A stretch of DNA of 64,000 nucleotides from Minisyncoccota bacterium (GCA_035500505.1 DATJXE010000003.1:70921-134920), one strand, 5' to 3'. Counted from the stretch's first letter, positions 45,298-59,552 are shown. The notes: a model not told the origin generated them from the sequence alone. Translations and numbers: made by a program.

Positions 45298-45336
45298 ACG
45301 GGCACTGGAAATAAACCCCCCAGTGCCCGTTTTTTA
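45298..45336 (+). terminator. Rho-independent terminator
   Basis: acgggcactgg ... ccagtgcccgt 11-bp stem followed by TTTTT. Confidence 0.55.
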
Positions 45337-45356
45337 TGCGTTGTTATACTCATTTG

Positions 45357-46157: not shown

Positions 46158-46159
46158 CG

Positions 46160-47014
46160 CTACGGCAAGACCGAAGCGAAAGAGAGTGCGACAGAGAACA
46201 CGAGCAGGACGGCGAGCGAAATAAAAAAGAGTTTCCGCGCCCACGCATCCTCATTTTCTGCCGTGAATCCCTGCGTCGCGAAGCCGAACCAAACGAGTGC
46301 CGCAAGTTCGACGACAAGTACGTACGCATATCCCGCATACCCAAGGAATGTCAGGAGCGATGCGGCGAGCGCGAAGCCGATGATATAGAGAAGAATCTGC
46401 CGCTTGGTCTCATGCGTCCCCTTCCGGAGCGGCAAGACGGGGATCCCGGCAGCCGCATATTCCCGGGAGCGGTACGTGGCGATCGAAAAGAAGTGTGGCA
46501 TCTGCCACAGCGCGAGTATCAGAAAAAGGATGAGTGCGACTAAGTCGAGCCTGTCCGCGACCGCGACATAGCCGACGACGATGGGCACTGCGCCGGCAAG
46601 GCTGCCTATCTCGGTCGCCCAGTGCGTCGTTCGTTTGGAAAAGCTGTACACGAACACGTAGATGAGGAATCCGGCGAGCGCGACCAGCGCCGCCAACACG
46701 TTGACAAAAACGAGGAGGAGCGCGAAGCCGACGACGCCAAGCACGCCGGCGAACACGAACGCGTTCGTATTGGAAATAGCGCCCGTTGCAAGTGCCCTGT
46801 CCTTAGTGCGCTCCATGTTCTTATCGATGTCTCGATCGAGGTAGTTGTTGATCACGCATGCGGAGGCGATGACGAATCCGAGCCCGAAGACGGTACCCAA
46901 AAAATTCTCCGCATTGACCTGCCAGCGCGAGGCAAAGAAATATGCTGCAACGGTCGTGATCAAATTCCCGTAGATGATGCCCGGCTTCGCGAGGTTGTAG
47001 TAGGTTTTGAACAT
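46160..47014 (-). CDS. cyoE: Protoheme IX farnesyltransferase (heme O synthase)
   Basis: UbiA fold, 284 aa, terminal gene of the cyo operon. Confidence 0.85.
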   Translation of the reverse strand: MFKTYYNLAKPGIIYGNLITTVAAYFFASRWQVNAENFLGTVFGLGFVIASACVINNYLDRDIDKNMERTKDRALATGAISNTNAFVFAGVLGVVGFALLLVFVNVLAALVALAGFLIYVFVYSFSKRTTHWATEIGSLAGAVPIVVGYVAVADRLDLVALILFLILALWQMPHFFSIATYRSREYAAAGIPVLPLRKGTHETKRQILLYIIGFALAASLLTFLGYAGYAYVLVVELAALVWFGFATQGFTAENEDAWARKLFFISLAVLLVFSVALSFASVLP

Positions 47015-47017
47015 AGA

Positions 47018-47527
47018 TTAAAAATCCAATTCCATTCTGACCCAGTTATCTTCTCGCCCTGTCTCTCTGAACCCCCAGCGCTCATATATTTCCTGAGCCT
47101 CTTCATTGTCTTGGTCGGTCAGGAGGTACATCCCTTTGGGAGAGTGGGGGGAGTGTTGCGCGCGCTCTTTCGCGTTGCGGAAAAGTTGCCCGCCTATTTT
47201 CTTCTTTTGTAACTCCGTGCGCACATAGAATCGCCTGAATTGAAAACGCTCATGCTCCGGCCTCCAGAACATTCCGCACATCCCCACCACTTGGCCCTGT
47301 CTCTTGGCAACGAGAAAGTACTCATCCTCGCCCGCTTTTTCGATTACCGGTATTAATTCCTTTATCCCTTCTTCGGGAATTATCGAACCCACATTTTCTT
47401 CTGGAAGTTTACCGGCATCCATGCGGGCCACAATGTTTTCGTACCGAAGTTGTGCCATTGCTGGCAGATCTTCCGCTCGCGCCACCTCGATGATGACCGG
47501 TATGCGCTCCAGCTTGGAATCGTCCAT
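47018..47527 (-). CDS. GNAT acetyltransferase embedded in the cyo operon
   Basis: Acetyl-CoA binding motif QVVGMCGM...RRFYV; internal Met start. Confidence 0.55.
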   Translation of the reverse strand: MDDSKLERIPVIIEVARAEDLPAMAQLRYENIVARMDAGKLPEENVGSIIPEEGIKELIPVIEKAGEDEYFLVAKRQGQVVGMCGMFWRPEHERFQFRRFYVRTELQKKKIGGQLFRNAKERAQHSPHSPKGMYLLTDQDNEEAQEIYERWGFRETGREDNWVRMELDF

Positions 47528-47529
47528 AT

Positions 47530-47910
47530 TCAAAATCCGCCCTGGCTTTGCATATACTGCTCCATCTGCGACGCATCCGGCATCATGCGCAAATTCAGAC
47601 TGAACATGATCCATAGCGAACCGGAGACCAGGATGCCAACGACGAGAATCGCGAACCCAAAAATGACAAGCCGTTTACGCGAAGCGCTTCCTCGCCCGAG
47701 GTGGAGAAAACACACGACCTGCACGATGAACTGCACGAGCGCGGCCGCGACAATGGCTGCGACGAGCCTCACTTGCGGAAGCGCGTGTTGTGCGACGAGA
47801 ACGTAGGCGCCGAGCGTGAGCGCAAGCGAGAGAACGAAGCCCGCGACATAGGCGCGTGCAATCCCGTGCGAATGAGGCCACGCGCCGATCTCCTCGAAAT
47901 AGTTTTTCAT
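47530..47910 (-). CDS. cyoD: Cytochrome bo3 oxidase subunit IV-like small membrane protein
   Basis: Three TM helices; position after cyoC. Confidence 0.6.
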   Translation of the reverse strand: MKNYFEEIGAWPHSHGIARAYVAGFVLSLALTLGAYVLVAQHALPQVRLVAAIVAAALVQFIVQVVCFLHLGRGSASRKRLVIFGFAILVVGILVSGSLWIMFSLNLRMMPDASQMEQYMQSQGGF

Positions 47911-48515
47911 AGCGCTCCCATCAAATATACGATGGTAAATATGAATATCCATACGATGTCGAGAAAGTGCCAAAAAAGGCTAAACAGAGCCAATTTTCGC
48001 ATATTGCCCCTCGAGAATCCGCGCTTGAGGATGGCGATCGTGAGCGAGAGCAGCCACAGGAGGCCAACGGCGACGTGAAGCCCGTGCGTGCCGACCAGCG
48101 TGAAGTACGCCGAGAGGAATCCGCTGTGCGAGGGACCGTATCCTTGCGCGACGAGGCGCGTGAACTCCGAAACTTCCATCCCGACGAATGCCGCTCCGAG
48201 AACGAATGTCGTCGAAAGCAACAGAATCGCCGCTTGCACTTTGTCAGCGCGCGCGGCAAGGAGCGCGAGGCCGCAGGTGAAACTGCTCGTAAGGAGTGCG
48301 ATCGTTTCGATGAGCACGTACGGCAAGTTGAAGATGTTGCCCATCGAGGACCCTCCGAATGCGGGGCCGCGCAAGACGGCGAACACGGCGAACAGGCTCG
48401 CGAAGAGCACCAAGTCGGTCATGAGGTACGCCCAGAATCCGAAAACGGCGGTAGAATCCGCCGCGCGTTCTTCGGGAGAAAGGGTGTCGCTCGCGTGGGC
48501 TTGGGTTTCCATCAT
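47907..48515 (-). CDS. cyoC: Cytochrome bo3 ubiquinol oxidase subunit III
   Basis: Five-TM COX3 fold. Confidence 0.85.
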   Translation of the reverse strand: MMETQAHASDTLSPEERAADSTAVFGFWAYLMTDLVLFASLFAVFAVLRGPAFGGSSMGNIFNLPYVLIETIALLTSSFTCGLALLAARADKVQAAILLLSTTFVLGAAFVGMEVSEFTRLVAQGYGPSHSGFLSAYFTLVGTHGLHVAVGLLWLLSLTIAILKRGFSRGNMRKLALFSLFWHFLDIVWIFIFTIVYLMGAL

Positions 48516-50497
48516 ACGGTTATCGCTTCGTCTCGTCGCAATCCGGCCTCACGGTGCACGATCTCGGACGCGGTGACGACATATTCCGCGTCCTCGTCGA
48601 ACGTGCGCGCGAGCGCGGTCACGATAGCGCCGAGCGCGCCGAATATCACGAGCCACCAGATGTGCCAGACCGCGCCGAACCCGAACGCGAAGACGAACGT
48701 TGCAATGATGAGCCCTGCAGCACTCTCTTTGGGCATATGGAAGTCTTCCGCCTGCATGTCGTGGTGTATCTTCGTGTGTTTGTATGCCCAAAACTGATCG
48801 CGCGCATGGACGAGCGGAAGTGCCGCGAAATTGTACGCGGGCGGGGGCGAAGCGACCGACCACTCGAGCGTGCGGCCGCGCCACGGATCGCTGCCGACCT
48901 TGTTTGCGTGCCGCTTCCTGATGCTCGCGATGAGCTGCGCGACCTGGCAACAAAAACCGAGTGCTATCAGAACGGCGCCGACTCCCGCAACCGCAAAAAG
49001 CGGCTGCCAGCCCAGCGCGGCGGAATAATGGTCGAGCCGCCTCGTCGCGCCCTCGAGACCAAGGAGGTAGAGCGGGCCGAACGCAAGGATGAATCCGGTG
49101 AGCCACAACCAGAACGCGCGCCTTCCCCACTTTTCATCGAACGTAAAGCCGAAGAATTTCGGGAACCAGTACGTGAGTCCCGCAAAGTAGCCGAAAAGCA
49201 CGCCGGAAACTATCATCGTGTGAAAGTGCGCGACGAGAAAGAGCGAGTTGTGCAATTCGTAGTCGGCCGGTGGTTCCGCCATGACGACGCCCGCGACCCC
49301 ACCCAGCGTGAAGAGCACGACGAACCCGATGAACCACAGCATCGGTGTGGTGAAGCGGATGCGTCCACGGTACATCGTGAAGAGCCAGTTGAATATCTTG
49401 ACGCCCGTCGGCACCGCGATGACCGCCGTCATGATGCCGAAGAACGCGTTCACATCCGCCTCCGCGCCCATCGTGAAAAAGTGGTGCAGCCATACGATGA
49501 ACGACAGCACAACAATGGCCCAAATGGAGAGCACCATCGACGTGTACCCGGCAAGTTTCTTGCTCGAAAAAACGGGCACGATCTCGGAAAACACCCCGAA
49601 CGCCGGCAAAATGAGGATGTAGACCTCCGGATGTCCCCACGCCCATATCAAATTGACGTACATCATCATGTTGCCGCCTCCGCCTGCGGTGAAAAAATGC
49701 ATGCCCGCGGTGCGGTCGAGCCACAAAAGCGCGAGGGTCACAGTGAGGATCGGGAACGCGAACACGACGAGCGACATCGAACCGAGCGTCGTCCAGGTGA
49801 ACATCGGAAGGCGCATCCAGGTCATGCCCTTCGCGCGCTTCTTCACGATGGTCGCGATGAAATTCACCCCCGAGAGGAGGCTTCCCAAGCCCCCGATCTG
49901 CAGTCCCCATATCCAATAATCAACCCCAACGGTCGGCGAATATTGAAGTTCCGAAAGCGGCGGATACGCGAGCCAGCCTGCGGTCGAGAAGTCGCCCAAC
50001 AAAAGCGAACAGTTGATGAGCGCCGCACCGGCAAAAAAGAGCCAGAAGCTCAAGGAATTCAAGAATGGGAACGCAACGTCGCGCGTCCCTATCTGGAGTG
50101 GCACAACGAGGTTGATGAGCCCGAACATGAGTCCCATCGCGACGAAAAAGATCATGATAGAACCGTGCGCGGAGAATATTTGTTGGAAATGGTTCGCGCT
50201 CACGATGCCGAACGAATCGCCCACCGAGGTCGCCTGCTGCGCGCGAAGGAGGAGCGCGTCGACGCCGCCGCGCACGAGCATGATGCCCGCGACCGTGATG
50301 TACATGATGCCGATCTTTTTTGGGTCGAGCGATGTAAACCACTCCTTCCACAGCCATCGCCATGAACCGGAGAAGGTGACGAAGGCGAGTACGGCCAGTA
50401 TGCAGGCCACCATATAGATGGCGCCGCCCCACGCGATCGGATTCTGCGGGAGAACCGACCACGAAAGCTTGCCGAATATGAGTTCCTGCCAGTTCAT
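48512..50497 (-). CDS. cyoB: Cytochrome bo3 ubiquinol oxidase subunit I (heme-copper oxidase)
   Basis: 661 aa with conserved His ligands and the WAHHMF region. Confidence 0.9.
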   Translation of the reverse strand: MNWQELIFGKLSWSVLPQNPIAWGGAIYMVACILAVLAFVTFSGSWRWLWKEWFTSLDPKKIGIMYITVAGIMLVRGGVDALLLRAQQATSVGDSFGIVSANHFQQIFSAHGSIMIFFVAMGLMFGLINLVVPLQIGTRDVAFPFLNSLSFWLFFAGAALINCSLLLGDFSTAGWLAYPPLSELQYSPTVGVDYWIWGLQIGGLGSLLSGVNFIATIVKKRAKGMTWMRLPMFTWTTLGSMSLVVFAFPILTVTLALLWLDRTAGMHFFTAGGGGNMMMYVNLIWAWGHPEVYILILPAFGVFSEIVPVFSSKKLAGYTSMVLSIWAIVVLSFIVWLHHFFTMGAEADVNAFFGIMTAVIAVPTGVKIFNWLFTMYRGRIRFTTPMLWFIGFVVLFTLGGVAGVVMAEPPADYELHNSLFLVAHFHTMIVSGVLFGYFAGLTYWFPKFFGFTFDEKWGRRAFWLWLTGFILAFGPLYLLGLEGATRRLDHYSAALGWQPLFAVAGVGAVLIALGFCCQVAQLIASIRKRHANKVGSDPWRGRTLEWSVASPPPAYNFAALPLVHARDQFWAYKHTKIHHDMQAEDFHMPKESAAGLIIATFVFAFGFGAVWHIWWLVIFGALGAIVTALARTFDEDAEYVVTASEIVHREAGLRRDEAITV

Positions 50498-51423
50498 GGT
50501 GTCATGTTCATTCCCTGCATTCCATCCGCCGTCGAGGCGGGATCCATCATCATGCCACTGCCGGGAGTCATGTATTTATTTTCTACGGAACCAAACAGGT
50601 CCACGGAAACCGGCCAGTAGTACGAGACAGGATTATACTCGGTCGGCTGGGCGAGCGACGCGTATGAACTCTCTGTAAGTGGCGCAAGTCCGGTCTTGGC
50701 GGCGGTCACCCATTGATCGAACTGCGTTTGCGGAACGGCTCGCGCAGTGAACGCCATGCCCGAGAAGCCGTCGCCGCTTATGTTGCCGGAGAAGCCGTTG
50801 AAGTCTCCCGTGCGGCTTGCCATGAGATTGAGTTGCGTGGTCATGCCGGGCATCGCCATGATCTGACCCCCGAGTTGCGGTATCCAAAAGGAATTCATCG
50901 GTGCATCGGCAGTGAGATAAAAATGGACCGGTGTCCCAACGGGAAATTCGACGAGGTTCACGCTCGCGATGCCTTGTTCGGGATAAATGAAGAGCCACTT
51001 CCAGTCGAGAGCGACGACGTCGATGGTCATCGAAGGAGTGTTCGCTTGGAGCGGTTTGTAGGGATCGAGTGCGTGGGAACTTTGCCAGGCGATGATACCG
51101 AGGATGAAAATGATGATGGCGGGGACGACCCACCAGACAACCTCGGCGACCCAGTTGTAGTGGTCCCATTCGGAATGATGCTCGTGCAGGGCCGCGTGGC
51201 CGCCTTCGCGGTAGCGCCACGAGAACGCGAAAAGCATTACGAAAACCGGCACGACAACAAGTGCGCACAAAAGGAGTGTAGTGAATATGATGTTCCTCTC
51301 CGCGAGCGCGACGGGCCCGGCAGGGTCGAGGATGGCGATGTTGGCGTGCTGTGCATAGATGACGGTCGCGACCACAAGCAAAGCAACGCCGGCGCACAGC
51401 AGGAATACCGAGAAGCGGCTCAT
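50494..51423 (-). CDS. cyoA: Cytochrome bo3 ubiquinol oxidase subunit II (quinol-type, no CuA site)
   Basis: Close match to E. coli CyoA around NSFWIPQLGGQIMAMPGMTTQLNL; TGCTACACT box 8 nt upstream. Confidence 0.85.
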   Translation of the reverse strand: MSRFSVFLLCAGVALLVVATVIYAQHANIAILDPAGPVALAERNIIFTTLLLCALVVVPVFVMLFAFSWRYREGGHAALHEHHSEWDHYNWVAEVVWWVVPAIIIFILGIIAWQSSHALDPYKPLQANTPSMTIDVVALDWKWLFIYPEQGIASVNLVEFPVGTPVHFYLTADAPMNSFWIPQLGGQIMAMPGMTTQLNLMASRTGDFNGFSGNISGDGFSGMAFTARAVPQTQFDQWVTAAKTGLAPLTESSYASLAQPTEYNPVSYYWPVSVDLFGSVENKYMTPGSGMMMDPASTADGMQGMNMTP

Positions 51424-51484: not shown

Positions 51485-52054
51485 TCACATTTGCGACGAC
51501 GTGGCGGTATCGAGTAACCGATCGGGTATCAATTCTTCTCCGTACGTTGTTGGCTGGAGCGGCGGCACCGTCCCCGGCAGGATCACCGTCGCGTTTATCC
51601 TCACGTCCGTGCCGATATCGGCGGAAGTGCCGCCTGCGGGTATCGCTCGCACAAAGGGCACCTTCTCAAGGAGCAATTTGTTCCCGGCACCATCCACGAG
51701 GGTTATATCAGCATTCTTGTTACACAGGAGCTGCAGTGCCTGCTGGTTGACCTCAAAACTATCCCGGTCGTCCGGATACGCATTCTGGTCCTCGAGGTGC
51801 TCCTTTATGTCGTGCAAGACGGCGATCAGTACTGGTTGCAATTCTTCGCAATTGCTCTCGACGCCGCCGGACGAATCTTCGTTCAATACCGTGGTGAAAG
51901 GTCCTATCTCGAGGCTTTGTCCGAGGCTTTGGTCGAATCCCGGCCCGTTATTCTTCCCTTCCGGGTGTTCCGTGAATTCATGGTAGGAAAAAAGGAGCAT
52001 GACGACGAGCAGGACACCGATAGCGACTGCGCTGATCTTTTCGAAGGTACTCAT
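51485..52054 (-). CDS. Secreted/membrane-anchored protein upstream of cyoA, unknown function
   Basis: N-terminal TM anchor; acidic soluble domain. Confidence 0.45.
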   Translation of the reverse strand: MSTFEKISAVAIGVLLVVMLLFSYHEFTEHPEGKNNGPGFDQSLGQSLEIGPFTTVLNEDSSGGVESNCEELQPVLIAVLHDIKEHLEDQNAYPDDRDSFEVNQQALQLLCNKNADITLVDGAGNKLLLEKVPFVRAIPAGGTSADIGTDVRINATVILPGTVPPLQPTTYGEELIPDRLLDTATSSQM

Positions 52055-52057
52055 AGG

Positions 52058-52348
52058 TCAATCGTCGTCTCGCTCCCCATCATACCCCCGGATGCGCGGT
52101 TGTGCGGGCACGGCTGGCTGGGTCGAGGTCGGGATCGTCGGAGCCGTCACCTGGACGTCGTTGGTCACACTCGTCGGGGGAGCGGGTGCCGGAGCGACCT
52201 GCGATGTTTCCGTTTCCGCGGCGGGAGCGGCTGAAGGTTGTGCCTGTTCAAGTCGCTCCTGTCCTTGTAAATACGATGCGCCGTACACAAGGCCCGACAA
52301 AAGTACGAGGCCCCAGGCGAATTGCATATGTTCTTTGAAGAAGTTCAT
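52058..52348 (-). CDS. Small membrane-anchored Pro/Ala/Thr-rich protein
   Basis: One TM helix; 4-nt overlap with upstream gene. Confidence 0.4.
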   Translation of the reverse strand: MNFFKEHMQFAWGLVLLSGLVYGASYLQGQERLEQAQPSAAPAAETETSQVAPAPAPPTSVTNDVQVTAPTIPTSTQPAVPAQPRIRGYDGERDDD

Positions 52349-53829
52349 GCGAAGCCAGGGAAGAAATCGCTCTTGATCCTGAAGCGTGAGATACCCATTG
52401 CGTGCAAGGTTTTCTTGAACGATTCCACCATGCCGTGCGGGCCGGATATGTAGAACATGCGCTCGTGGAAATCCGGAACTTCCTTCGCGATGAGCGGCAT
52501 GTCTATCGTGTTGCCGGTCGCATAGACCGTCTTGATGCCGAGTTCCGCCTGCGCGCGGTCCAAGAGCGGTTTGTATGCGATGTCGGCGGGCGTTCTGTTC
52601 GCGTATAAGAGGACGATGTCGCGTTTCTCCTTGGTGCCGAGCAGATATTCGATCATGCTGCGGAACGGCGTGATGCCGATACCTCCGGCGATGAACACCA
52701 ATTTTTTATCCCTATTGCGGGGCAAAACGAACCCGCCTGCCAGATGGGAAACGGATATCGTGCCGCCGACTTTCATCGCGCCGAGGGTGCGCTTGAACGT
52801 GCTCGCGGGCGCGTAAAATTTCACGCCCAAGCGCACGTGCGGCTCGGTGGGGGCCGACGCGAGCGTGAAATAACGCCTGTTCCCGCGGTCGTCTGGATAC
52901 CGGTGAGAAAGCGTCCACTCCATGTACTGCCCCGGCTTGAACGAGAACGGGCGATCCGACGTGAAGATGAAATCGTATGCGTCTTTTGCCGCCTGCTCGA
53001 TCCGAACGAGGGTGAGCGTAAAGCGACCCTTCGGGCTTACGACGTAGGAGAATACGTTGCCGGCGAGGAGCGCGAGTTCCGGCGTCATGTAGAAGCTCCC
53101 GATGTGGATGTTGGGCGCAAAAAAGAAGCCGACCAGTGCGCCATAGCACACGCGCAGCAGTCTGTTCGGAGGAGTGGTCAGAGGCTCGGTGAGCATGACG
53201 AATCCCAAGAAGAAAAACGAGGAGTGCAGGAGTGTCTGCGTGATTGGTGTCAGGTAATCGCCGGTCGAGGTCGTGGCCAATGTGGTCGCGAGGGCAACGA
53301 TGGCGAACGAGCCCACAAGGTCGAAGCGTTGTATCTTGCGAACGACAAGGAGTCCGCCGATCACTACGATTGGCATGAGCCACGCATTGCCGCCGACCCA
53401 CCACGTTGCCGGTTCATTGATGACCAGCGCGGAGAGCGCGACGGCGAACGCTGCGGGGTTGAAGACGTGTTTTTTCCCTATCGCGAAGATGTACTTCGAG
53501 GCCATCGCCCACACGGAAGCGAACACGAGGAAGCCGACCCCGGCGTGATCGCTTGCCGTGACCGGAGAAATGATAAGAACGAGTATGAGCGCGGTGATGT
53601 AGACGGATTCGATGTTGGTCTCGGCCTTGAACGTCCGCGCGAAAACCCAGTTCGTCGCCATGCACACGAGCGTGATAAGAATGGCGGAAAACGCCAGCGA
53701 GGCCGGGTCGTACTGGAGCAATCCGAAAAAACCGAGTGCGAACGCGGTCAGCACGAGGACCACCAAGTAGTACAGCACCAGGCGGTACATCGTGATGCGG
53801 TTGAGTATGTCGTCGATGAACGTGATCAT
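52345..53829 (-). CDS. Membrane flavoprotein: polytopic N-terminal domain fused to a ferredoxin-NADP(H)-reductase-like FAD/NAD(P)-binding domain
   Basis: ~7 TM helices, then RRYFTLASAP (RxYS FAD motif) and VFIAGGIGITP NAD(P) motif; no Cys cluster for an Fe-S centre. Confidence 0.65.
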   Translation of the reverse strand: MITFIDDILNRITMYRLVLYYLVVLVLTAFALGFFGLLQYDPASLAFSAILITLVCMATNWVFARTFKAETNIESVYITALILVLIISPVTASDHAGVGFLVFASVWAMASKYIFAIGKKHVFNPAAFAVALSALVINEPATWWVGGNAWLMPIVVIGGLLVVRKIQRFDLVGSFAIVALATTLATTSTGDYLTPITQTLLHSSFFFLGFVMLTEPLTTPPNRLLRVCYGALVGFFFAPNIHIGSFYMTPELALLAGNVFSYVVSPKGRFTLTLVRIEQAAKDAYDFIFTSDRPFSFKPGQYMEWTLSHRYPDDRGNRRYFTLASAPTEPHVRLGVKFYAPASTFKRTLGAMKVGGTISVSHLAGGFVLPRNRDKKLVFIAGGIGITPFRSMIEYLLGTKEKRDIVLLYANRTPADIAYKPLLDRAQAELGIKTVYATGNTIDMPLIAKEVPDFHERMFYISGPHGMVESFKKTLHAMGISRFRIKSDFFPGFA

Positions 53830-54566
53830 GCGAGGTGGGAGCCAAGGCCGCTCGTCAGGGTCGCGATGCCGGCGCTGTCTATCGAGTACCCTTCGAAGCC
53901 TTCGAGTTTTTCTATGAAGTCGATGCCGCTTCGTCCCATCGCAAAGGCAGCCGTCGCGAAACGGTCTGCTTCGCAAACGTCCGGACCGACGACGGTGAGG
54001 CTCACGATGTCGGTGATCGGTACGCGCGGATCATGCGGATTGTAAATGTGATTGCCTCGCGCGGCGGTGCCCGATGTGGCGACGCCCGCGCCGCGCGGGT
54101 AGAGAACTTTTACTATCTGCTCGCGGTTGAAAGGGTTCCGGATGCCGATCGTCCACTCCTTCCCTTCGGCATTGTGTCCGTTCGTTTGTATGTCACCGCC
54201 TATCTCCAGGTAATAAGAATCGAATCCCGAAGCTTTGGCGAGGTCCGCGGCTTTCCGTATCGCCCAGCCCTTGACGATGCCAGAGGGGTCGAAGGTCCCG
54301 TCAGGACGACGGACGTTGAAGTATCCTGCCGTTTCCCTCATGGTCTTCTCGGCAAGTGATAGCACCTCCTGCATCTCTCGACTGTGGTTGGATGGTGCGA
54401 TGTTGCCGCGGTTGATATGCGCTACCTCGCTGTCGTCTCTGTACGTACTGAAACGCGCGTTGATCTCGTCCCACAGATCAAAAATGTGTTCGATCGGTTG
54501 AATATCGTCGCTCCCTACCAGTTCGACGGAAGCGGGCATGCCCATGATGATCCTGTGGTGTCGCAT
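53826..54566 (-). CDS. apbE: FAD:protein FMN transferase ApbE
   Basis: ApbE-family conserved core. Confidence 0.75.
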   Translation of the reverse strand: MRHHRIIMGMPASVELVGSDDIQPIEHIFDLWDEINARFSTYRDDSEVAHINRGNIAPSNHSREMQEVLSLAEKTMRETAGYFNVRRPDGTFDPSGIVKGWAIRKAADLAKASGFDSYYLEIGGDIQTNGHNAEGKEWTIGIRNPFNREQIVKVLYPRGAGVATSGTAARGNHIYNPHDPRVPITDIVSLTVVGPDVCEADRFATAAFAMGRSGIDFIEKLEGFEGYSIDSAGIATLTSGLGSHLA

Positions 54567-54568
54567 GG

Positions 54569-55126
54569 TCAGGTTTTTGCTTGAGCGAGCGCAGCGCCGA
54601 GCGACTGCCGGAACGCCGCACTGGTGTCGCTCGCGCCGGAAACTCCGCTGACATTCGCGCTTTGCGCTTGGATGGCTTCTTGGACGAGAAGTGGCATCGC
54701 CTGCCCGTTGATGTAACGCGACGTCCCGCGGTCGTTCGGATACTGCAGGAACGTGACGTCGATCAACTTTCCGCCGCTGACGGTCGCCTGAACCTGCACA
54801 TTCCCGTAGTAAGCATCCGCGACGCTCCCTGTGTAGCTGCCATCAATGTACTGCCCTTGCGGCTTGGGTGTCGGAGTGGGCGTTGGAGTCGGTGCCTGGG
54901 TCTGTGTTTGAGGAGGTGGTTGAGTCTGGACCTGAGATGGCTGCTGAGACGTGGTTTGTTGTGGGGGAACTGTGGGGCTGGGGATGGAAGACGTCAGCAC
55001 AACGGAGGTCGGGGGAGTTGTTTGGGACGATGTCGGTTGCGCTGCTGAGCCCCCCGAAAGGTATTGATATGCAACGTAGCCTCCGGAGGCCAGAAATACG
55101 AAAAGTGATAGGAAAAATTTCTTCAT
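54569..55126 (-). CDS. Extracytoplasmic FMN-binding domain protein (NqrC/RnfG-like), likely ApbE substrate
   Basis: Signal/TM anchor, Pro/Thr/Gln linker, FMN_bind domain with SGAS-DTS flavinylation-type motif. Confidence 0.65.
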   Translation of the reverse strand: MKKFFLSLFVFLASGGYVAYQYLSGGSAAQPTSSQTTPPTSVVLTSSIPSPTVPPQQTTSQQPSQVQTQPPPQTQTQAPTPTPTPTPKPQGQYIDGSYTGSVADAYYGNVQVQATVSGGKLIDVTFLQYPNDRGTSRYINGQAMPLLVQEAIQAQSANVSGVSGASDTSAAFRQSLGAALAQAKT

Positions 55127-55290: not shown

Positions 55291-56505
55291 TTACTGTACG
55301 AACTTGAAAGTCTGTGCAATATCATCAAGTTTGCCGAGTAAAGCTGTTTCTGTCTGCACTGACCATTGACGATTATCACAGCCGCTATTTACACAAGCAC
55401 TTGGAAACGAAGAAAGGCGAATATCTACGCATACACCATTATGAACTGCGGAATACTGCCGTTCAGCGCCTTCAAATGAATCGTGCGAGGTTACGTCGTA
55501 CTGAAGGAAAGTGAGGCTGTTGATAATCGTGTTCTTAGCGTTTCCTGAGAGGACCTCTCGATATTGCGCCGGTATATTCGGATCGTTATCTACCCAAACG
55601 AATGCTCCGGGAGATGTGCATTTTGCAACATCGGACGAATCCGCGCTGACGCTAACGGTCATGTAGCCTTCTGTTTGATAGTTGTCGGTAAGTTGTACAT
55701 ACGCTATCGGGCTACTGGAGAATGTTTTGATTGAGCCGTAGTCAGTTGTTCCAAAATATGCAGCGCTTGGATACTGAAAACTGAATCCATACTGTGCATT
55801 GCTATATATCTTTGTATCCGAAGAAGTGACGGCTGGCTGTGTAAAGTGAAAGGATTGAACTATCGACTCAAGGTCATTTTGTGACTGACTGGGTTGCTCA
55901 ACCCCACCTTGATAATTGCTGAACTCATCGTCGAGAATGGCGTAACACAAACCATTATGCGATGTGTAATACGCAGTAAAGGCCTCTTGAGTTCCGGCTG
56001 CAGCGTCTCCACCTGAGCTGGTCGTGAATTGAACGCCATGTATGGTCGCGGTACCGTATTTGGTGCTATTTCCTTCTCCTCCAGTTGGAGTATTGCACCA
56101 AGAATTGGTGCTGGTCGAAACGATAGGCACAACATACCCGTAGGCAAAGCCGTTTATCGGTTGCGGACTTTTTTCATAGAACACGACGAGGGGGTTGCCT
56201 CTGCATACGGAGAAACCTTCGGCGCAATCCGGATTTACTTGTGCCGTACTAGGATACTGCATAGTAAATCCATACTGAGTATTGTTGTATGTCTTTGTAT
56301 CCGAAGCATCGGATGTGGGATTTGCTTGAGCGGACTGTGACGGTTTATTATTCACCGCTGTCGCTGGAAGTTCGGGCAAATTCTGCTGTGTCTGGAATGC
56401 GGCATTTTGATCCATGACGTAATATGCCCCGCCACCAACGGCGATGAGTCCGAGGATGATAGCGATCAAGACCCCGAGGCCGATAAAACCCCTTTGAGTT
56501 TCCAT
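55291..56505 (-). CDS. Secreted protein with an internally duplicated ~110-aa domain, unknown function
   Basis: N-terminal TM; repeats DTKTYNNTQYGFTMQYP and DTKIYSNAQYGFSFQYP; visibly AT-richer than flanks. Confidence 0.55.
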   Translation of the reverse strand: METQRGFIGLGVLIAIILGLIAVGGGAYYVMDQNAAFQTQQNLPELPATAVNNKPSQSAQANPTSDASDTKTYNNTQYGFTMQYPSTAQVNPDCAEGFSVCRGNPLVVFYEKSPQPINGFAYGYVVPIVSTSTNSWCNTPTGGEGNSTKYGTATIHGVQFTTSSGGDAAAGTQEAFTAYYTSHNGLCYAILDDEFSNYQGGVEQPSQSQNDLESIVQSFHFTQPAVTSSDTKIYSNAQYGFSFQYPSAAYFGTTDYGSIKTFSSSPIAYVQLTDNYQTEGYMTVSVSADSSDVAKCTSPGAFVWVDNDPNIPAQYREVLSGNAKNTIINSLTFLQYDVTSHDSFEGAERQYSAVHNGVCVDIRLSSFPSACVNSGCDNRQWSVQTETALLGKLDDIAQTFKFVQ

Positions 56506-56625
56506 GATGCTTTAATTCTATAATGCGTGGCCCGAAAGTAAATCAGCTGTCAACTTGTTTCGAACAACCCCTGGGGTCGCACCTTTGCCTCAGACCTCAG
56601 AGTTGTCCGATAAAAAACTCTTGAG

Positions 56626-56710
56626 CGGAGGGGGTGAGATTCGAACTCACGGTGCCTTTCGGCACATCTGTTTTCAAGACAGACGCACTAGACCACTATG
56701 CGACCCCTCC
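56626..56710 (-). tRNA. tRNA-Ser (anticodon TGA), type II
   Basis: GGAGGGG acceptor, anticodon loop CTTGAAA, long variable arm TGTGCCGAAAGGCACC, T-loop TTCGAAT, discriminator G. Confidence 0.85.
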
Positions 56711-56734
56711 GGGAATTACCACTATACAATTCTT

Positions 56735-56766
56735 TTGAGCTACAACACCAGACGCGGTGCTACAAT
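56735..56766 (+). promoter_or_regulatory. Sigma70-like promoter TTGAGC, 17 nt spacer, TGCTACAAT; start codon 8 nt downstream
   Basis: Extended -10 consensus match; implies a leaderless transcript for the 56775 gene. Confidence 0.5.
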
Positions 56767-56774
56767 AAATACTC

Positions 56775-57248
56775 ATGCCTCCGCAAAGACGGGTGCTCCG
56801 CTGGAGCGCGTACGAACATGAGTTCACCGAGCGCGGCGCCGATTGGTTCTGGGCGCTCGGCATCATCGCGTTGTGCGGAGCGGTCTTGTGCGTACTTTTC
56901 CACGATGTTCTGTTCGGGCTCCTCATCCTCGTCGCAGCCGTCGCCTTCGGGTTGCTCGCCAACACCGCGCCGGAGCTGGCGACCTTTGAGGTCTCCGACC
57001 GCGGCATCCGCATCAACGGCATATTGCATCAGTACCACGACATCATTTCGTTCTGGGTAGAAGAAGAGCATCACCACGGCCGTCCACTCCTTCTTGTCGA
57101 TACCACAAAGTTCCTGGCGCCGAACTTCATCATTCCGCTCGAAGGCATCGACCCGCATCTCGTGCGCACGTTCCTCAAGCGACACGCCAAAGAAGTCCAC
57201 ATGAAAGAACCTCTCTCGCACAGAGTCGTGGAATTCTTCGGGCTCTAA
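56775..57248 (+). CDS. Two-TM membrane protein, unknown function
   Basis: ORF with TM pair and His-rich patch. Confidence 0.5.
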   Translation: MPPQRRVLRWSAYEHEFTERGADWFWALGIIALCGAVLCVLFHDVLFGLLILVAAVAFGLLANTAPELATFEVSDRGIRINGILHQYHDIISFWVEEEHHHGRPLLLVDTTKFLAPNFIIPLEGIDPHLVRTFLKRHAKEVHMKEPLSHRVVEFFGL

Positions 57249-57251
57249 GGA

Positions 57252-59552
57252 TCACTGTGCAGCGGCTGTTGATGATGCCGTGCCGACCGATACGGTCGTC
57301 GAGGCGATCCTGGTCTGTCCGCCGAGCGTCGTGCAGGTGAGATCGAATTCGGTTGGGCCGGTAATGCCGTCCGTTTGAGCGACGCCGTTGACGCTTTGGT
57401 TGTTCGCGTTCGACGCGGTGAATGCCGCGTCCTGCGGACTTGAGATGACGCACGCTTGCATGCCGGCCGTGACCCAGCCGATGGACGAGGGTTGTCCGTT
57501 CGGAACCGTCTTGGGGTTGGAGACGAGGACGATCGCAGGCTGGTTTATCTGCACGCTGCACTGCGCCCCCGTTGCTTGCGAACCGTTCGTGCAGGTGAGC
57601 CCGAAATTCGCGGTGTTCGTTCCCGAAGGCGGGGTCGTTATCACCGTCGTCGTCGAACCCGACGTTTGGTTACCCGTGGAGAAGCCCGCGCCGGAAGAAC
57701 CGGTCGCGTTCCCGCAGGAGTACGACATGGCGACCGTCATGCCGACATCGGCGGTCTGCGGCGAGCACGAAAGCTGCGCGGTCGGCGTTCCCGCAGTTTG
57801 TCCTCCGCACTGATAGCTCGTGATGCACCCGTTGCTCGCGGCCGAAACGGGTTGCCACGAACCGGTCGTGCATGAGGAAGCGGCAGGCTGCGGAGGCGGT
57901 TGCGAGCATGCCTGCCCGTTGGTGCCGACGCCGTAGGGCGTTTGCGACGATGTGCAGGAATTTGTTCCGGTGCACCCGGCGAGTGAAGTGCCGTTGAGCG
58001 TGGTGTTGCAGGAGGCGGTGCCACTGTTGTTCTGTCCGTATACGATCATGGTGTAGTTCGCGGCACCGTTCGGGTAGACGGTGTAGGACCCCGAAGGTCC
58101 GACATTGCCGACGCCGGAGATCTGGGCTTGATATACGTTGCCACTCGATGTCCAGGTGAGGTTCGCCGGCATGCCTGGTTGTGGCGGATTCGGGGATATC
58201 GAGAGTTGGCACGAGAGGCTATTATTGCATCCGAAGAGCGACGAAAGAACGGTGCAAGTATTGTTGGGGTTTCCGCCCTGGTATTGCGGGTTGCCGAATG
58301 TTGACTGCTTTAACCCTCTGAGGAATGAGCTCAGTGGATTTCCAGTGTTGTTTTGATTATTTGCTGGCGGTTGTTGCTGTTGCTTGCCCGGAGGACTGCA
58401 ATCTCCGCCAGGACACAACTGGTTAGCAGTGCTCGACCGGCAATAAAACGACAATCCGTCGTCAGTATACCCACCGGAGCTTCCGCTTGGGCATATGTTG
58501 CAAGCGGGAGGGTTGTTTGCGCCATTGGTACAGGTACCGCCTTGTGTTCCCGGAGAACTGGACAGTCCCTGGCAAATCGTTTGCCCCGTATCGGTGTACC
58601 CGGCAATTATTCCATTCGGACATGCATCACAGGTCGGAGGATTGGTGGCGCCGTTACCACAGGAGTTCGTGTTCGGAGTTTCAGGTGTGGGTTGGGTTGA
58701 TGTATTTGCACAAATGGTCTGCCCATCATCCGTGTATCCCTGAACCCCGCCCGGGCATGCATCACAGGTTGGAGGATTGGTGGCGCCGTTACCACACAAG
58801 CCATTGTTCGGAGTGATGATCGGATTTCCGTTGGCTCCATTGTCAGAGCCAGAATTGGAGGGTGGCAGATTTGCGGGTGCGGTATCGTTGACGCCATTCC
58901 CAAGAGGGACGTCCTTGTCCCAACACGCAGGCGTCCCGCCTGCAAAATAAAAGTTGACGTGACATGTCCACGGACCGCTTTGGACGGCACTTTGAACTTG
59001 GTAGGTACTGCCAGACAAAACATATTTACACACCACTTTCTTCGTGGCGGTTGGCTGACTGTCTGGATTGGTGCATTGGGTTCGATTTGCTTGGGGTTGT
59101 ACAGTCTTCGCTAATGCGGAGGGAAGGTTGGTCTGGTCGGAGGAAATGGTTTGCGGGAGGGTTCCCTTAACGGTTCCGTCAGTCGACGTATACTGGTACG
59201 CCGACTTTGCAGCTGCGTACACTTGATTACCCGATGTACAGATCCGAATTGCTTGATCTGAAAGTTGCGACGATCCGTTTTCGTATGAGGGTGTTCCATA
59301 GGCAGGGACTAACGAATACGACGGCACAACGGCAAGATTATAGTCCATCCCCTCTTGGCATGATTGATCGACCGAGGCCGCTGGAGCCGAAGCCTGTGCG
59401 GGAAGCGCGACGTTGTTCGCCGAGCCTGGTTGAAAGGCATGAAGTCCGAGCGCAACGGCCCCCAGCAGAGCCGCGAATACCAGCGCGGCGATGACGGAGG
59501 TTCCCGCCTGCGCGGCTGGCAGGCCGCGACGAGGACGCGGGCGAGAGGACAT
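57252..59552 (-). CDS. Giant Cys-rich secreted repeat protein
   Basis: N-terminal TM/signal; three tandem CGNGATNPPTCDACP modules; many paired Cys. Confidence 0.6.
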   Translation of the reverse strand: MSSRPRPRRGLPAAQAGTSVIAALVFAALLGAVALGLHAFQPGSANNVALPAQASAPAASVDQSCQEGMDYNLAVVPSYSLVPAYGTPSYENGSSQLSDQAIRICTSGNQVYAAAKSAYQYTSTDGTVKGTLPQTISSDQTNLPSALAKTVQPQANRTQCTNPDSQPTATKKVVCKYVLSGSTYQVQSAVQSGPWTCHVNFYFAGGTPACWDKDVPLGNGVNDTAPANLPPSNSGSDNGANGNPIITPNNGLCGNGATNPPTCDACPGGVQGYTDDGQTICANTSTQPTPETPNTNSCGNGATNPPTCDACPNGIIAGYTDTGQTICQGLSSSPGTQGGTCTNGANNPPACNICPSGSSGGYTDDGLSFYCRSSTANQLCPGGDCSPPGKQQQQPPANNQNNTGNPLSSFLRGLKQSTFGNPQYQGGNPNNTCTVLSSLFGCNNSLSCQLSISPNPPQPGMPANLTWTSSGNVYQAQISGVGNVGPSGSYTVYPNGAANYTMIVYGQNNSGTASCNTTLNGTSLAGCTGTNSCTSSQTPYGVGTNGQACSQPPPQPAASSCTTGSWQPVSAASNGCITSYQCGGQTAGTPTAQLSCSPQTADVGMTVAMSYSCGNATGSSGAGFSTGNQTSGSTTTVITTPPSGTNTANFGLTCTNGSQATGAQCSVQINQPAIVLVSNPKTVPNGQPSSIGWVTAGMQACVISSPQDAAFTASNANNQSVNGVAQTDGITGPTEFDLTCTTLGGQTRIASTTVSVGTASSTAAAQ
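58457..58817. repeat. Intragenic tandem DNA repeats (~120 bp units) encoding the CGNGATNPPTCDACP modules
   Basis: Repeated nucleotide blocks visible on both strands. Confidence 0.55.

What the first reader, a model, noticed from the sequence alone, without database searches (positions are those of the whole stretch)
52345..55126. Compact flavin module (FMN-binding protein, ApbE, membrane FNR-like flavoprotein) directly upstream of the cyo oxidase operon
Three overlapping or abutting genes encode an extracytoplasmic FMN_bind-domain protein with a Ser/Thr flavinylation-type motif, the flavin transferase ApbE, and a polytopic membrane protein fused to an FAD/NAD(P)-binding reductase domain. The reductase domain lacks the Fe-S ferredoxin module of NqrF. 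There are no recognisable Nqr or Rnf core subunits. The module therefore looks like a minimal transmembrane NAD(P)H-to-extracytoplasmic-flavoprotein electron route. It is not a textbook NQR, RNF or Listeria-type EET locus. Its position next to cyoABCDE and two small secreted proteins suggests a link to respiration or redox homeostasis.
Basis: partly seen in the sequence, partly recalled or inferred. Interest (0 to 1): 0.55.

Follow-up and report, generated by a model that had tools for sequence, protein, structure and literature searches.

The report
Known Nqr/Rnf-like flavin electron module
The three genes are real, but they are one more copy of the already published "NQR/RNF-like" flavin system, thought to pass electrons from NAD(P)H across the membrane to an outside flavoprotein, and their position beside the cyo oxidase genes is a local quirk rather than a conserved link.

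Summary
The three minus-strand genes exist and are tightly packed:
- FMN_bind protein, 54569-55126.
- ApbE, 53826-54566.
- Membrane-FNR fusion, 52345-53829. It is 494 aa, not 543.

That is wrong. The membrane domain hits Pfam NQR2_RnfD_RnfE above its cut-off, and its 15 best structural matches are all RnfD or NqrB chains.

A PF03116+PF00175 fusion beside ApbE and an FMN_bind gene is the operational definition of the "NQR/RNF-like system" (Meheust 2021, modelled by Huang 2024). That system was reported mainly in Actinobacteria and the candidate phyla radiation (CPR). The host here is a Candidatus Paceibacterota (CPR) bacterium.

The proposed NAD(P)H -> FAD -> membrane domain -> outside FMN route therefore matches the published, still untested, model.

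The cyo link is weak:
- 0 of 82 related loci have cyo within 10 kb.
- 0 of 3 closest relatives (80% identity) have it.
- Only 1 of the 80 closest CyoB loci carries the module nearby.

New details:
- The ApbE has no export signal, here and in nearly all of about 70 related loci.
- Two small clade-specific membrane-anchored proteins (p96, p189) are coupled downstream.

Verdict: new member of a known kind, modest interest.

The parts
54569..55126 (-). FMN_bind subunit, 185 aa plus stop. N-terminal MKK + hydrophobic signal-anchor (about 55058-55126). Pro/Thr/Gln-rich tether of about 70 aa (about 54851-55057). Compact FMN_bind domain (54572-54850).
   Evidence: ORF and sequence. Pfam PF04205 E=1.9e-5. 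Match to solved FMN-binding domain 8p2a, E=2.8e-13. Homologue directly upstream on the same strand in 73 of 82 related loci.
54629..54631 (-). Codon of Ser166, the predicted ApbE flavinylation site (last residue of SGAS).
   Evidence: Position. It aligns with the SGAT of 8p2a. A [STA]G[AS][ST] motif is at the same place in 74 of 76 homologues: SGAT 39, SGAS 15, TGAT 8, SGSS 7, AGAS 3, TGAS 2. That this residue carries FMN is inferred, not shown.
53826..54566 (-). ApbE-type FAD:protein FMN transferase, 246 aa. Compact and leaderless: it starts MRHHRIIMGMP with no signal peptide, lipobox or TM segment. His173 codon is at 54048-54050.
   Evidence: Pfam PF02424 E=3.9e-38. NCBIfam ApbE. PDB ApbE hits with the His aligned. 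The leaderless N-terminus is conserved in nearly all of about 70 loci. Start lies 2 nt after the FMN_bind stop; the stop overlaps the next ATG.
52345..53829 (-). NqrB/RnfD-like membrane domain fused to an FNR-like reductase, 494 aa plus stop. Membrane domain about 53035-53829. FAD-binding beta-barrel about 52735-53022. NAD(P)-binding domain about 52348-52704.
   Evidence: Pfam PF03116 (29.4 bits, cut-off 27.7) plus PF00175. NCBIfam FNR-family hits. Exact match to NCBI VMH91_00765, Candidatus Paceibacterota. AlphaFold models. Foldseek: reductase domain matches flavohemoglobin, SpNOX and NqrF FAD domains; membrane domain matches RnfD/NqrB in the top 15. hhalign to E. coli RsxD, residues 158-260 vs 231-334, E=4e-5.
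52058..52348 (-). p96: small membrane-anchored protein with a low-complexity Pro/Ala/Thr linker and a basic-then-acidic C-terminal tail. Its start overlaps the stop of the fusion gene (ATGA).
   Evidence: Positional and sequence-pattern equivalents (xFFKE + TM + SY[LAM]Q ... DD[DEN] tail) in L001, L164 and L166. No Pfam or NCBIfam family. Clade-specific accessory; function unknown.
51485..52054 (-). p189: membrane-anchored protein of unknown family with 2 Cys, 3 nt after p96.
   Evidence: Only 49 homologues, all Patescibacteria, many on contigs of the same length as those carrying NqrB-FNR homologues. Found directly downstream of the fusion gene in L001, L003, L012 and L164-L166. No Pfam or NCBIfam family.
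46160..51423 (-). Neighbouring context, not part of the conserved module. cyoA 50494-51423, cyoB 48512-50497, cyoC 47907-48515, cyoD 47530-47910, GNAT 47018-47614, heme o synthase cyoE 46160-47014.
   Evidence: Pfam. NCBIfam CyoA/B/C/D and heme o synthase. CyoA has no Cys in its cupredoxin domain, so no CuA, which is the quinol-oxidase type (sequence). Not adjacent to the module in 82 + 3 relatives.

Best explanation
This is a member of the published 'NQR/RNF-like' flavinylation-associated transmembrane electron-transfer system, carried by a Candidatus Paceibacterota (CPR) bacterium.

Proposed working, shown versus inferred:
1. Domains shown, chemistry inferred: the cytoplasmic C-terminal FNR-like domain of the 494-aa protein oxidises NAD(P)H at a bound FAD.
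2. Inferred from Na+-NQR and Rnf structures: electrons cross the membrane through the NqrB/RnfD-like domain. The carrier is probably a non-covalent flavin. That leg runs FMN to riboflavin in NqrB/RnfD and would run in reverse here.
3. Motif shown, modification inferred: electrons reach an FMN that ApbE has attached by phosphoester to Ser166 of the tethered FMN_bind protein outside the membrane.
4. Unknown: the tethered flavin domain passes electrons to an extracytoplasmic acceptor not yet identified.

In this Paceibacterota clade two extra small membrane-anchored proteins, p96 and p189, are translationally coupled to the module. They are candidate adaptors or acceptors. The cyo operon next door is most likely a lineage-specific juxtaposition, not a partner of the module.
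For: - The domain architecture equals the operational definition. PF03116 and PF00175 sit in one protein, with ApbE and FMN_bind genes abutting it (definition in PMC8238504).
- The fold of the membrane domain is RnfD/NqrB. The fold of the C-terminal half is an FNR-type FAD/NAD domain.
- FNR cofactor motifs are invariant across 80 homologues.
- FMN_bind-ApbE-fusion order and spacing are conserved. FMN_bind is present in 73 and ApbE in 70 of 82 loci from Patescibacteria, Chloroflexota/Ktedonobacteria and Alphaproteobacteria.
- The flavinylation motif is conserved. The ApbE His is present.
- No other Rnf/Nqr subunit lies in the window or near the related loci.
- The published AlphaFold-multimer model of the Ktedonobacter homologue puts the FMN_bind flavinylation site next to the flavin pocket of the NqrB/RnfD-like subunit. 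Ktedonobacteria homologues are in my locus set (L041, L046).
- The family is 344 clusters at E<=1e-30, mostly about 480-515 aa, so the fusion is the norm.
Against: - No member of this system has been characterised experimentally. I found only the two bioinformatic/modelling papers. Donor, direction, cofactors and acceptor are all inferred.
- The ApbE has no export signal, here and in nearly all relatives. The positive-inside rule puts the FMN_bind domain outside. The model does not explain how flavinylation happens.
- Sequence similarity of the membrane domain to NqrB/RnfD is marginal. Pfam is only 1.7 bits above cut-off. The PDB profile search gives RnfD at E=0.11. The claim rests largely on a model of moderate confidence, pLDDT 71.5.
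- The FMN_bind protein shows no pairwise similarity to E. coli RsxG. It is closest to a small free-standing FMN-binding domain.
- Tight operon-like packing with cyoABCD in this genome, and a second nearby co-occurrence in L085, leave a respiratory role open.
Confidence: 0.72

Rival explanations
1. Electron-input module for the adjacent cytochrome bo3 quinol oxidase. The NqrB-like/FNR fusion, with its flavoprotein, acts as a minimal NAD(P)H:quinone reductase feeding scavenged quinone. With cyoABCD this would give a two-enzyme respiratory or O2-scavenging chain in a CPR bacterium that lacks complex I.
For: - In the window, FMN_bind, ApbE, the fusion, p96, p189 and cyoA-D are all co-directional. 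They overlap or are only a few nt apart up to cyoA, and no terminator-like signal above chance lies between them.
- A second contig, L085 (CyoB 76% identical, the closest found), has the module 1.8 kb upstream of cyoA, although its module belongs to a different clade.
- In Na+-NQR the quinone site is on NqrB (textbook knowledge of the NQR structures, not tested here).
- Nicolas et al. 2021 note an unexplained 'oxidoreductase' in some CPR cyo loci and no quinone biosynthesis genes (PMC8407418).
Against: - No CyoA/B/C lies within 10 kb of the fusion gene in 0/82 species-level loci, nor in the three closest relatives at 80% identity.
- 79 of the 80 closest CyoB loci lack the module.
- In L085 a DoxX-like gene and the housekeeping GTPase engB separate the two.
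- In close relative L166 the S20/RuvA/Mur block flanks the module on the other side, so the region is rearranged.
- Near-universal retention of the outside FMN_bind protein and ApbE argues for an extracytoplasmic acceptor rather than a cytoplasmic-side quinone site.
- CyoA lacks CuA, so a flavoprotein cannot donate directly to the oxidase.
Confidence: 0.1
2. A remnant or partial Rnf/Nqr complex. RnfD/NqrB-like and RnfG/NqrC-like parts work with canonical A/E (D/E), B and C (A, F) subunits encoded elsewhere in the genome.
For: - The membrane domain is an NqrB/RnfD homologue.
- The FMN_bind domain family also includes NqrC/RnfG.
- Only 64 kb of a contig of at least 367 kb was available.
Against: - tblastn with E. 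coli RsxA, B, C, G and E finds nothing better than E=0.2 in the window, and nothing at E<=1e-3 within 10 kb of 82 related loci.
- The FNR fusion replaces the NADH module.
- The RnfD periplasmic stretch that carries the flavinylated Thr (E. coli RsxD T187, about 75 residues) has no counterpart, judged by manual alignment of the sequences.
- The three-gene unit is self-contained and conserved across four or more phyla.
- The published analysis reaches the same conclusion.
Confidence: 0.04
3. An assimilatory ferric or other metal reductase. The outside flavin reduces Fe(III) or chelates for uptake, as Meheust et al. suggested for the six clusters that contain a VIT1 transporter.
For: - Published suggestion.
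- Close relative L164 has FUR, ZnuA and an ABC ATPase 8-10 kb downstream.
- Two-component regulators are the commonest other neighbours (27-28 of 82 loci), which suggests environmental regulation.
Against: - No iron transporter or VIT1 gene lies next to the module in the window.
- No iron-related family was among the recurrent neighbour clusters.
- VIT1 was reported in only 6 of 127 published clusters.
Confidence: 0.12

Closest known systems
NQR/RNF-like flavinylation-associated system (Meheust et al. 2021 eLife, PMC8238504; Ktedonobacter racemifer complex modelled in Huang et al. 2024, PMC10979944)
   Same: - PF03116 + PF00175 fusion protein with adjacent ApbE and a membrane-anchored FMN_bind protein.
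- No other Nqr/Rnf subunits.
- The taxa match: CPR here; Ktedonobacteria and other phyla in my survey.
- The proposed one-way NAD(P)H-to-outside-FMN route is the same.
   Different: - Nothing essential differs.
- Local extras: p96 and p189 are coupled downstream, in the Paceibacterota clade only.
- A cyo operon lies immediately downstream.
- The leaderless ApbE does not appear in the passages I retrieved from the two papers. I did not read them in full.
Rnf complex (RnfABCDGE), specifically the RnfC-RnfD-RnfG leg
   Same: - RnfD-type membrane fold: top Foldseek hits 9eri_D, 8ahx_D, 8rbq_D and 7zc6_D.
- Conserved FNPA and TEP.T motifs shared with E. coli RsxD.
- An extracytoplasmic covalently flavinylated FMN_bind partner.
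- An NAD(H) site on the cytoplasmic side.
   Different: - No RnfA/E, RnfB or RnfC.
- The NAD(P)H module is an FNR domain fused in cis rather than the FMN/Fe-S protein RnfC.
- The stretch of RnfD carrying the flavinylated Thr is missing.
- There is no return path, so no ferredoxin coupling is expected.
- The FMN_bind protein is not detectably similar to RsxG pairwise.
Na+-NQR (NqrABCDEF), the NqrF-NqrB-NqrC parts
   Same: - NqrB chains are Foldseek hits 3 and 5-13 and 15, TM 0.55-0.61.
- The FNR domain matches NqrF FAD/NAD domains: 7qu3, 7qty, 8a1t_F.
- The partner is flavinylated by ApbE.
   Different: - No 2Fe-2S ferredoxin domain or TM helix of NqrF.
- No NqrA, NqrD or NqrE.
- Whether a quinone site is retained is unknown.
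Other membrane domains fused to an NAD-binding domain: MsrQ-like and PepSY-like flavinylation systems, and bacterial NOX (SpNOX)
   Same: - Same logic: a cytoplasmic FNR-type dehydrogenase domain is fused to a membrane electron conduit that delivers electrons outside.
- SpNOX appears among the fold hits through its dehydrogenase domain.
- These systems are described in PMC8238504.
   Different: - Their conduits are di-heme ferric-reductase-type domains.
- The conduit here is an NqrB/RnfD fold with no heme-domain Pfam hit.

Membership tests
NQR/RNF-like system (Meheust 2021 operational definition) | [quoted passage not shown] | tested here: met
   PF03116 at 29.4 bits (cut-off 27.7), residues 203-311 of the 543-aa ORF. 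PF00175 at 46.4 bits (cut-off 22). Fold confirmed.
NQR/RNF-like system (Meheust 2021 operational definition) | Located in a flavinylation-associated gene cluster: ApbE and/or an FMN_bind gene within five genes | tested here: met
   ApbE and FMN_bind are the two genes immediately upstream, overlapping or abutting.
NQR/RNF-like system (Meheust 2021 operational definition) | [quoted passage not shown] | tested here: inconclusive
   FMN_bind starts MKK + FFLSLFVFLASGGYVAY, which looks like a signal peptide or anchor. My simple 19-residue hydropathy window did not reach its TM threshold, and SignalP was not available. ApbE clearly has none.
NQR/RNF-like system (Huang 2024 description) | Only two structural subunits; no other Nqr/Rnf subunits in the cluster | tested here: met
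   tblastn with RsxA/B/C/G/E is negative in the window and in 82 loci. The Pfam content of the neighbours is unrelated.
NQR/RNF-like system (Huang 2024 description) | [quoted passage not shown] | tested here: inconclusive
   About 75 residues of E. coli RsxD between the FNPA helix and the GG..K helix, including T187 in SQATPL, have no counterpart (manual alignment of the sequences; hhalign covers only the C-terminal half). A conserved A-[S/T]-W-W motif (S/T in 69/80) sits in the shortened segment, and its equivalence could not be settled.
Rnf complex | RnfB (the defining gene in Meheust 2021) plus RnfA, C and E encoded together with D and G | tested here: not met
   No hits in the window (best E=0.2) or near related loci. 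The rest of the genome was not available.
Na+-NQR | NqrF with a 2Fe-2S ferredoxin domain, plus NqrA, D and E | tested here: not met
   No Fer2 domain. Only two Cys in the fusion protein. The NCBIfam nqrF hit covers only residues 398-478, at 31.8 bits against a cut-off of 295.
Listeria-type flavin-based EET locus | Membrane NDH-2 (Ndh2) with EetA/EetB, PplA and DmkA/B beside FmnB | tested here: not met
   None of the genes from 46 to 59.5 kb has a matching Pfam family. The reductase here is FNR-type, not NDH-2.
NOX/ferric-reductase (FRD) type NAD(P)H oxidoreductases | Di-heme ferric-reductase transmembrane domain (PF01794) in front of the FNR domain | tested here: not met
   No PF01794 hit. The membrane domain folds as RnfD/NqrB. 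SpNOX and DUOX match only through the dehydrogenase half.

The most novel reading that the evidence does not exclude
Two readings are not excluded.

(a) In this cyo-bearing Paceibacterota lineage the NQR/RNF-like module has been recruited as the missing NAD(P)H-side electron input of a minimal aerobic chain ending in cytochrome bo3. It would work through scavenged quinone or through the coupled p96/p189 proteins. This would explain how CPR bacteria without complex I or quinone synthesis use their cyo operons.

(b) The conserved leaderless ApbE means that flavinylation in the whole family happens in the cytoplasm before export, or that the accepted topology is wrong. Either would be new for ApbE biology.

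The probability given below is for (a) or (b) together.
Probability: 0.15. Interest if true: 0.7.

Novelty: new member of a known kind. Interest (0 to 1): 0.3.

Why it matters
As it stands this is a re-discovery. The system was defined in 2021 and modelled in 2024, and its acceptor and physiology are still unknown.

It matters modestly for three reasons:
- It is a clean CPR example in which the module is packed into one apparent operon with a complete cyoABCD/cyoE set. That offers a concrete test of whether such modules can feed an oxidase in organisms thought to lack electron-transport inputs.
- The survey shows that the ApbE of this family is systematically leaderless. This bears on where and how the flavoprotein is modified.
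- It identifies two clade-specific coupled proteins, p96 and p189, as candidate partners or acceptors for a system whose terminal step is unknown.

Tried and rejected
- A profile search of the whole fusion against PDB sequences returned only FNR-domain proteins. The membrane domain alone gave RnfD only at E=0.11, below spurious SecG hits. Sequence alone is therefore not convincing, and I relied on fold search.
- Foldseek with the full-length model was dominated by the FNR half. It had to be repeated with a membrane-domain-only model.
- A global pairwise alignment to E. coli RsxD misaligned the N-terminal half. hhalign aligned only residues 158-260. The position equivalent to the flavinylated Thr therefore rests on manual, spacing-based reasoning and stays uncertain.
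- I considered an in-frame stop-codon read-through or a FMN_bind-ApbE fusion. I rejected it because the two ORFs are in different frames, separated by TGA + 2 nt, and the gaps differ between loci.
- The promoter and terminator scan gave counts no better than shuffled sequence, so it is uninformative on co-transcription.
- The look-up of encoding contigs had no record for the window's own protein.
- The NQR/RNF-like sheet of the eLife supplementary table was truncated in the held copy. I could not check how the authors scored ApbE signal peptides.
- BLASTP of the FMN_bind protein against E. coli RsxG found nothing significant.
- p96, p189 and p404 have no informative Pfam or NCBIfam hits, except a weak PsbP_2 match for p404.


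Full report
**1. What is in the sequence**

A run of co-directional genes lies on the minus strand between about 51.5 and 55.1 kb.

- **FMN_bind protein.** It most likely starts at the ATG at 55126 (MKKFF...), as its homologues do, and ends at the TGA at 54569-54571.
- **ApbE.** Two nucleotides after that stop the ApbE gene starts (54566). It ends at 53826.
- **Fusion gene.** The ApbE TGA overlaps the ATG at 53829 (ATGA) of the membrane/reductase gene, which runs to 52345.
- **Length correction.** Three things show the product is 494 aa: the ATGA overlap, the lengths of homologues (481-511 aa), and an identical 494-aa NCBI protein, VMH91_00765 from a 'Candidatus Paceibacterota bacterium' on a 366,717-bp contig.
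- **Downstream genes.** The stop of the fusion gene overlaps the start of a 96-aa ORF (p96, 52058-52348), again by ATGA. A 189-aa ORF follows after 3 nt (p189, 51485-52054). Then come cyoA, cyoB, cyoC, cyoD, a GNAT gene and the heme o synthase gene.
- **Upstream.** A tRNA-Ser gene (56625-56710) and a 404-aa secreted-looking protein lie upstream.

**2. Identity of the three proteins**

*FMN_bind protein (185 aa).*
- It has an MKK + hydrophobic N-terminus and a Pro/Thr/Gln-rich tether of about 70 residues, followed by a compact FMN_bind domain (PF04205).
- The closest solved relative is the small FMN-binding domain 8p2a (E=2.8e-13). In that alignment the window's SGAS lies on the SGAT of 8p2a.
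- Ser166 is therefore the predicted flavinylated residue.
- A matching [STA]G[AS][ST] motif is present in 74 of 76 homologues next to related fusion genes.

*ApbE (246 aa).*
- It matches PF02424 at E=3.9e-38 and solved ApbE structures.
- His173 aligns with the His of V. cholerae ApbE (6nxi) at the one position where the sequence variant 6nxj has no His.
- The protein is compact and has no signal peptide, lipobox or hydrophobic N-terminus. The conserved MG motif is already at residues 8-9.

*Fusion protein.*
- The C-terminal half is a clear FNR-type module. Evidence is PF00175, many NCBIfam FNR-family alignments over residues about 316-539 of the long ORF, and PDB profile hits to flavohemoglobin, T4moF and NqrF FAD domains. 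Foldseek gives the same picture.
- The motifs RRYFT, GGIGITP and ISGP are invariant or nearly so in 80 homologues.
- There is no ferredoxin domain, and the protein has only two Cys.

**3. The membrane domain is NqrB/RnfD-like**

- Pfam places residues 203-311 of the long ORF in NQR2_RnfD_RnfE, at 29.4 bits against a gathering score of 27.7. Most close homologues carry the same precomputed annotation.
- Sequence evidence alone is thin. A PDB profile search gives RnfD at only E=0.11. hhalign to E. coli RsxD aligns residues 158-260 with 231-334 at E=4e-5 and 70% probability.
- An AlphaFold model of residues 1-268 (pLDDT 71.5, pTM 0.70) gives RnfD chains (9eri_D, 8ahx_D, 8rbq_D, 7zc6_D) and NqrB chains as its 15 best Foldseek matches. 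TM scores normalised to the query are 0.55-0.68. After these hits comes a sharp drop to urea transporters and noise.
- By eye, the window's ...ASKYIFAIGKKHVFNPAAFAVAL... lines up with RsxD's ...[24 protein letters not shown]....
- About 75 RsxD residues between that helix and the GG..K helix have no counterpart. This stretch includes the flavinylated Thr187 in SQATPL. That agrees with the published statement that the NqrB/RnfD flavinylation site is not conserved in these proteins.
- A conserved A-[S/T]-W-W motif (S/T in 69 of 80, WW in 80 of 80) sits in the shortened segment. I could not decide what it corresponds to.

**4. It is a published system**

- Meheust et al. 2021 define an 'NQR/RNF-like system' as a flavinylation-associated cluster that encodes a PF03116 + PF00175 fusion. 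[quoted passage not shown] - Huang et al. 2024 modelled the Ktedonobacter racemifer two-subunit complex with AlphaFold-multimer. [quoted passage not shown]
- A full-text search found no experimental characterisation.
- The window's locus meets the definition (see the membership table).

**5. Is it a fragment of a larger complex?**

- tblastn with E. coli RsxA, B, C, G and E against the whole 64-kb window gives nothing better than E=0.2. Against 82 related loci with 10-kb flanks only RsxD hits appear, and they fall on the fusion gene itself.
- The rest of the window is ordinary CPR housekeeping: FtsK, RecA, EF-P, several aminoacyl-tRNA synthetases, PilM/N and an ECF sigma factor.
- The remainder of the genome could not be examined.

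**6. Conservation and neighbourhood**

- A scan of one genome per GTDB species returned 80 loci. They come from Patescibacteria (Paceibacterota, Saccharibacteria, Nomura-, Magasanik-, Adler- and Levybacteria), Chloroflexota including Ktedonobacteria, Alphaproteobacteria (Mesorhizobium, Kaistia, Phyllobacterium, Methylocapsa) and others.
- By all-against-all clustering, FMN_bind is directly upstream in 73 loci and ApbE in 70 of 82 loci, on the same strand and with the same spacing.
- The commonest other neighbours are an OmpR-type response regulator (28 loci) and a histidine kinase (27 loci).
- The membrane domain alone finds 344 clusters (50% identity) at E<=1e-30. Most are about 480-515 aa long, so the fusion is the rule.

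**7. The cyo neighbourhood**

*From the module side.*
- CyoA, CyoB and CyoC were detected within 10 kb in 0 of 82 loci.
- The three closest relatives (80% identity; L164, L165, L166) have the module with p189, and sometimes a p96-like ORF, but no cyo genes.
- L166 has the S20/RuvA/Mur-ligase block on the opposite side of the module compared with the window. This shows local rearrangement.

*From the cyo side.*
- Among the 80 closest CyoB loci in metagenomes, only L085 carries the module. L085 has the closest CyoB, at 76% identity.
- In L085 the module lies 1.8 kb upstream of cyoA, separated from it by a DoxX-like gene and engB.
- The L085 fusion protein is only 53% identical to the window's and sits in a different clade of a neighbour-joining tree.
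- The next closest locus, L084, has too little upstream sequence to judge.

*Other constraints.*
- CyoA has no Cys in its cupredoxin domain, and the subunits score as CyoA-D. The oxidase therefore needs quinol and cannot take electrons directly from a flavoprotein.
- Nicolas et al. 2021 already reported cyo operons in soil CPR bacteria. They noted missing quinone biosynthesis and an unexplained 'oxidoreductase' ORF in some loci.

*Conclusion.* The adjacency is not a property of the system. A lineage-restricted functional link is possible, with two occurrences seen, but it is unproven. I give it about 10%.

**8. Things that are new or unexplained**

(a) *Leaderless ApbE.*
- Nearly all of the about 70 ApbE genes next to these fusions encode proteins of about 245-250 aa that begin M-K/R-x-T-R-h-h-M-G-M-P, with no hydrophobic leader.
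- The FMN_bind partner has positive charges before its hydrophobic segment and acidic or polar residues after it. That predicts an outside location.
- Cytoplasmic ApbEs are known for cytoplasmic targets, for example the K. pneumoniae fumarate reductase.
- So either flavinylation precedes export, or ApbE reaches the outside by an unknown route, or the topology is not as assumed.

(b) *p96 and p189.*
- p189 has only 49 homologues, all from Patescibacteria. Many are on contigs of the same length as those carrying fusion homologues. It sits directly downstream in L001, L003, L012 and L164-L166.
- p96-like ORFs with the same N-terminal xFFKE + TM + SY[LAM]Q and the same acidic C-terminal tail occur in L001, L164 and L166.
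- Both are membrane-anchored and of unknown fold. They are the best local candidates for partners or acceptors.

(c) *Long tether.* The flexible tether of the FMN_bind protein fits a flavin domain that swings between the membrane site and a distal acceptor. This is inference only.

**9. Verdict**

- The mechanistic interpretation coincides with the published, untested model.
- The suggested link to respiration is not supported by conservation.
- Novelty: new member of a known kind.
- Interest: about 0.3. It is raised slightly by the operon-like fusion with a complete cyo set in a CPR genome, and by the leaderless-ApbE puzzle.

Noticed in passing
window 53826-54566 (-); ApbE genes in L001-L082: The ApbE of this module has no signal peptide, lipobox or TM anchor. 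The same holds for nearly all of about 70 ApbE genes next to NqrB/RnfD-FNR fusions in at least four phyla. Their FMN_bind target nevertheless looks exported (MKK + hydrophobic segment). Where flavinylation takes place is unexplained.
   Followed up: partly
window 52058-52348 (-) and 51485-52054 (-); L001, L003, L012, L164-L166: Two small membrane-anchored proteins, p96 and p189, are translationally coupled to the fusion gene. They recur downstream of it only in the close Paceibacterota clade. p189 has just 49 homologues and no known domain. p96 keeps conserved termini around a low-complexity linker.
   Followed up: partly
L085 1-9719 (metagenome contig VFSW01011594.1): This is the only other place found where the module and a cyo operon are close. 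The gene order is FMN_bind-ApbE-fusion, a DoxX-like membrane protein, engB, then cyoABCDE. CyoB is 76% identical to the window's, but the fusion protein is only 53% identical and sits in a different tree clade.
   Followed up: partly
window 53398-53409 (-), residues 141-144 of the fusion protein: A conserved A-[S/T]-W-W motif (S/T in 69 of 80 homologues, WW invariant) lies in the shortened segment that replaces the flavinylated loop of RnfD. Whether it lines a flavin pocket or is itself modified is unknown. The AlphaFold model is of low confidence here.
   Followed up: partly
L005-L017, L023-L025, L042 against the window clade (NJ tree): Fusion proteins from Alphaproteobacteria (Mesorhizobium, Kaistia, Phyllobacterium, Methylocapsa) are 52-61% identical to the window's. 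They form the sister group of the window's Paceibacterota clade, nested among CPR sequences. This suggests horizontal transfer between CPR bacteria and Alphaproteobacteria.
   Followed up: no
window 14186-17136 (-): Two adjacent genes carry ATP-citrate-lyase-type domains. One has Citrate_bind and an ATP-grasp domain. The other has CoA-ligase and a citrate synthase C-terminal domain. This is an unusual carbon-metabolism feature for a Paceibacterota genome.
   Followed up: no
window 45336-47614: The cyo operon has a GNAT acetyltransferase gene (47018-47614) between cyoD and the heme o synthase gene. A divergently oriented farnesyl-diphosphate-synthase-like gene (45336-46157, +) lies next to it and could supply the heme O side chain. 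No quinone biosynthesis gene is in the window.
   Followed up: partly
window 55291-59552 (-) and 56625-56710 (-): Upstream of the module lie a 404-aa Cys-rich secreted-looking protein with a weak PsbP_2 match, a tRNA-Ser gene, and a 766-aa low-complexity Cys/Gly/Thr/Pro-rich secreted protein with no family. None of them is conserved next to the module in relatives. In L166 the S20/RuvA/Mur-ligase block is on the other side of the module, so the region is rearranged.
   Followed up: partly
L001-L082, within about 1.5-2.5 kb of the fusion gene: An OmpR-type response regulator (28 loci) and a histidine kinase (27 loci) are the most frequent non-module neighbours across phyla. This hints at environmentally regulated expression. 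No such pair is next to the module in the window.
   Followed up: no
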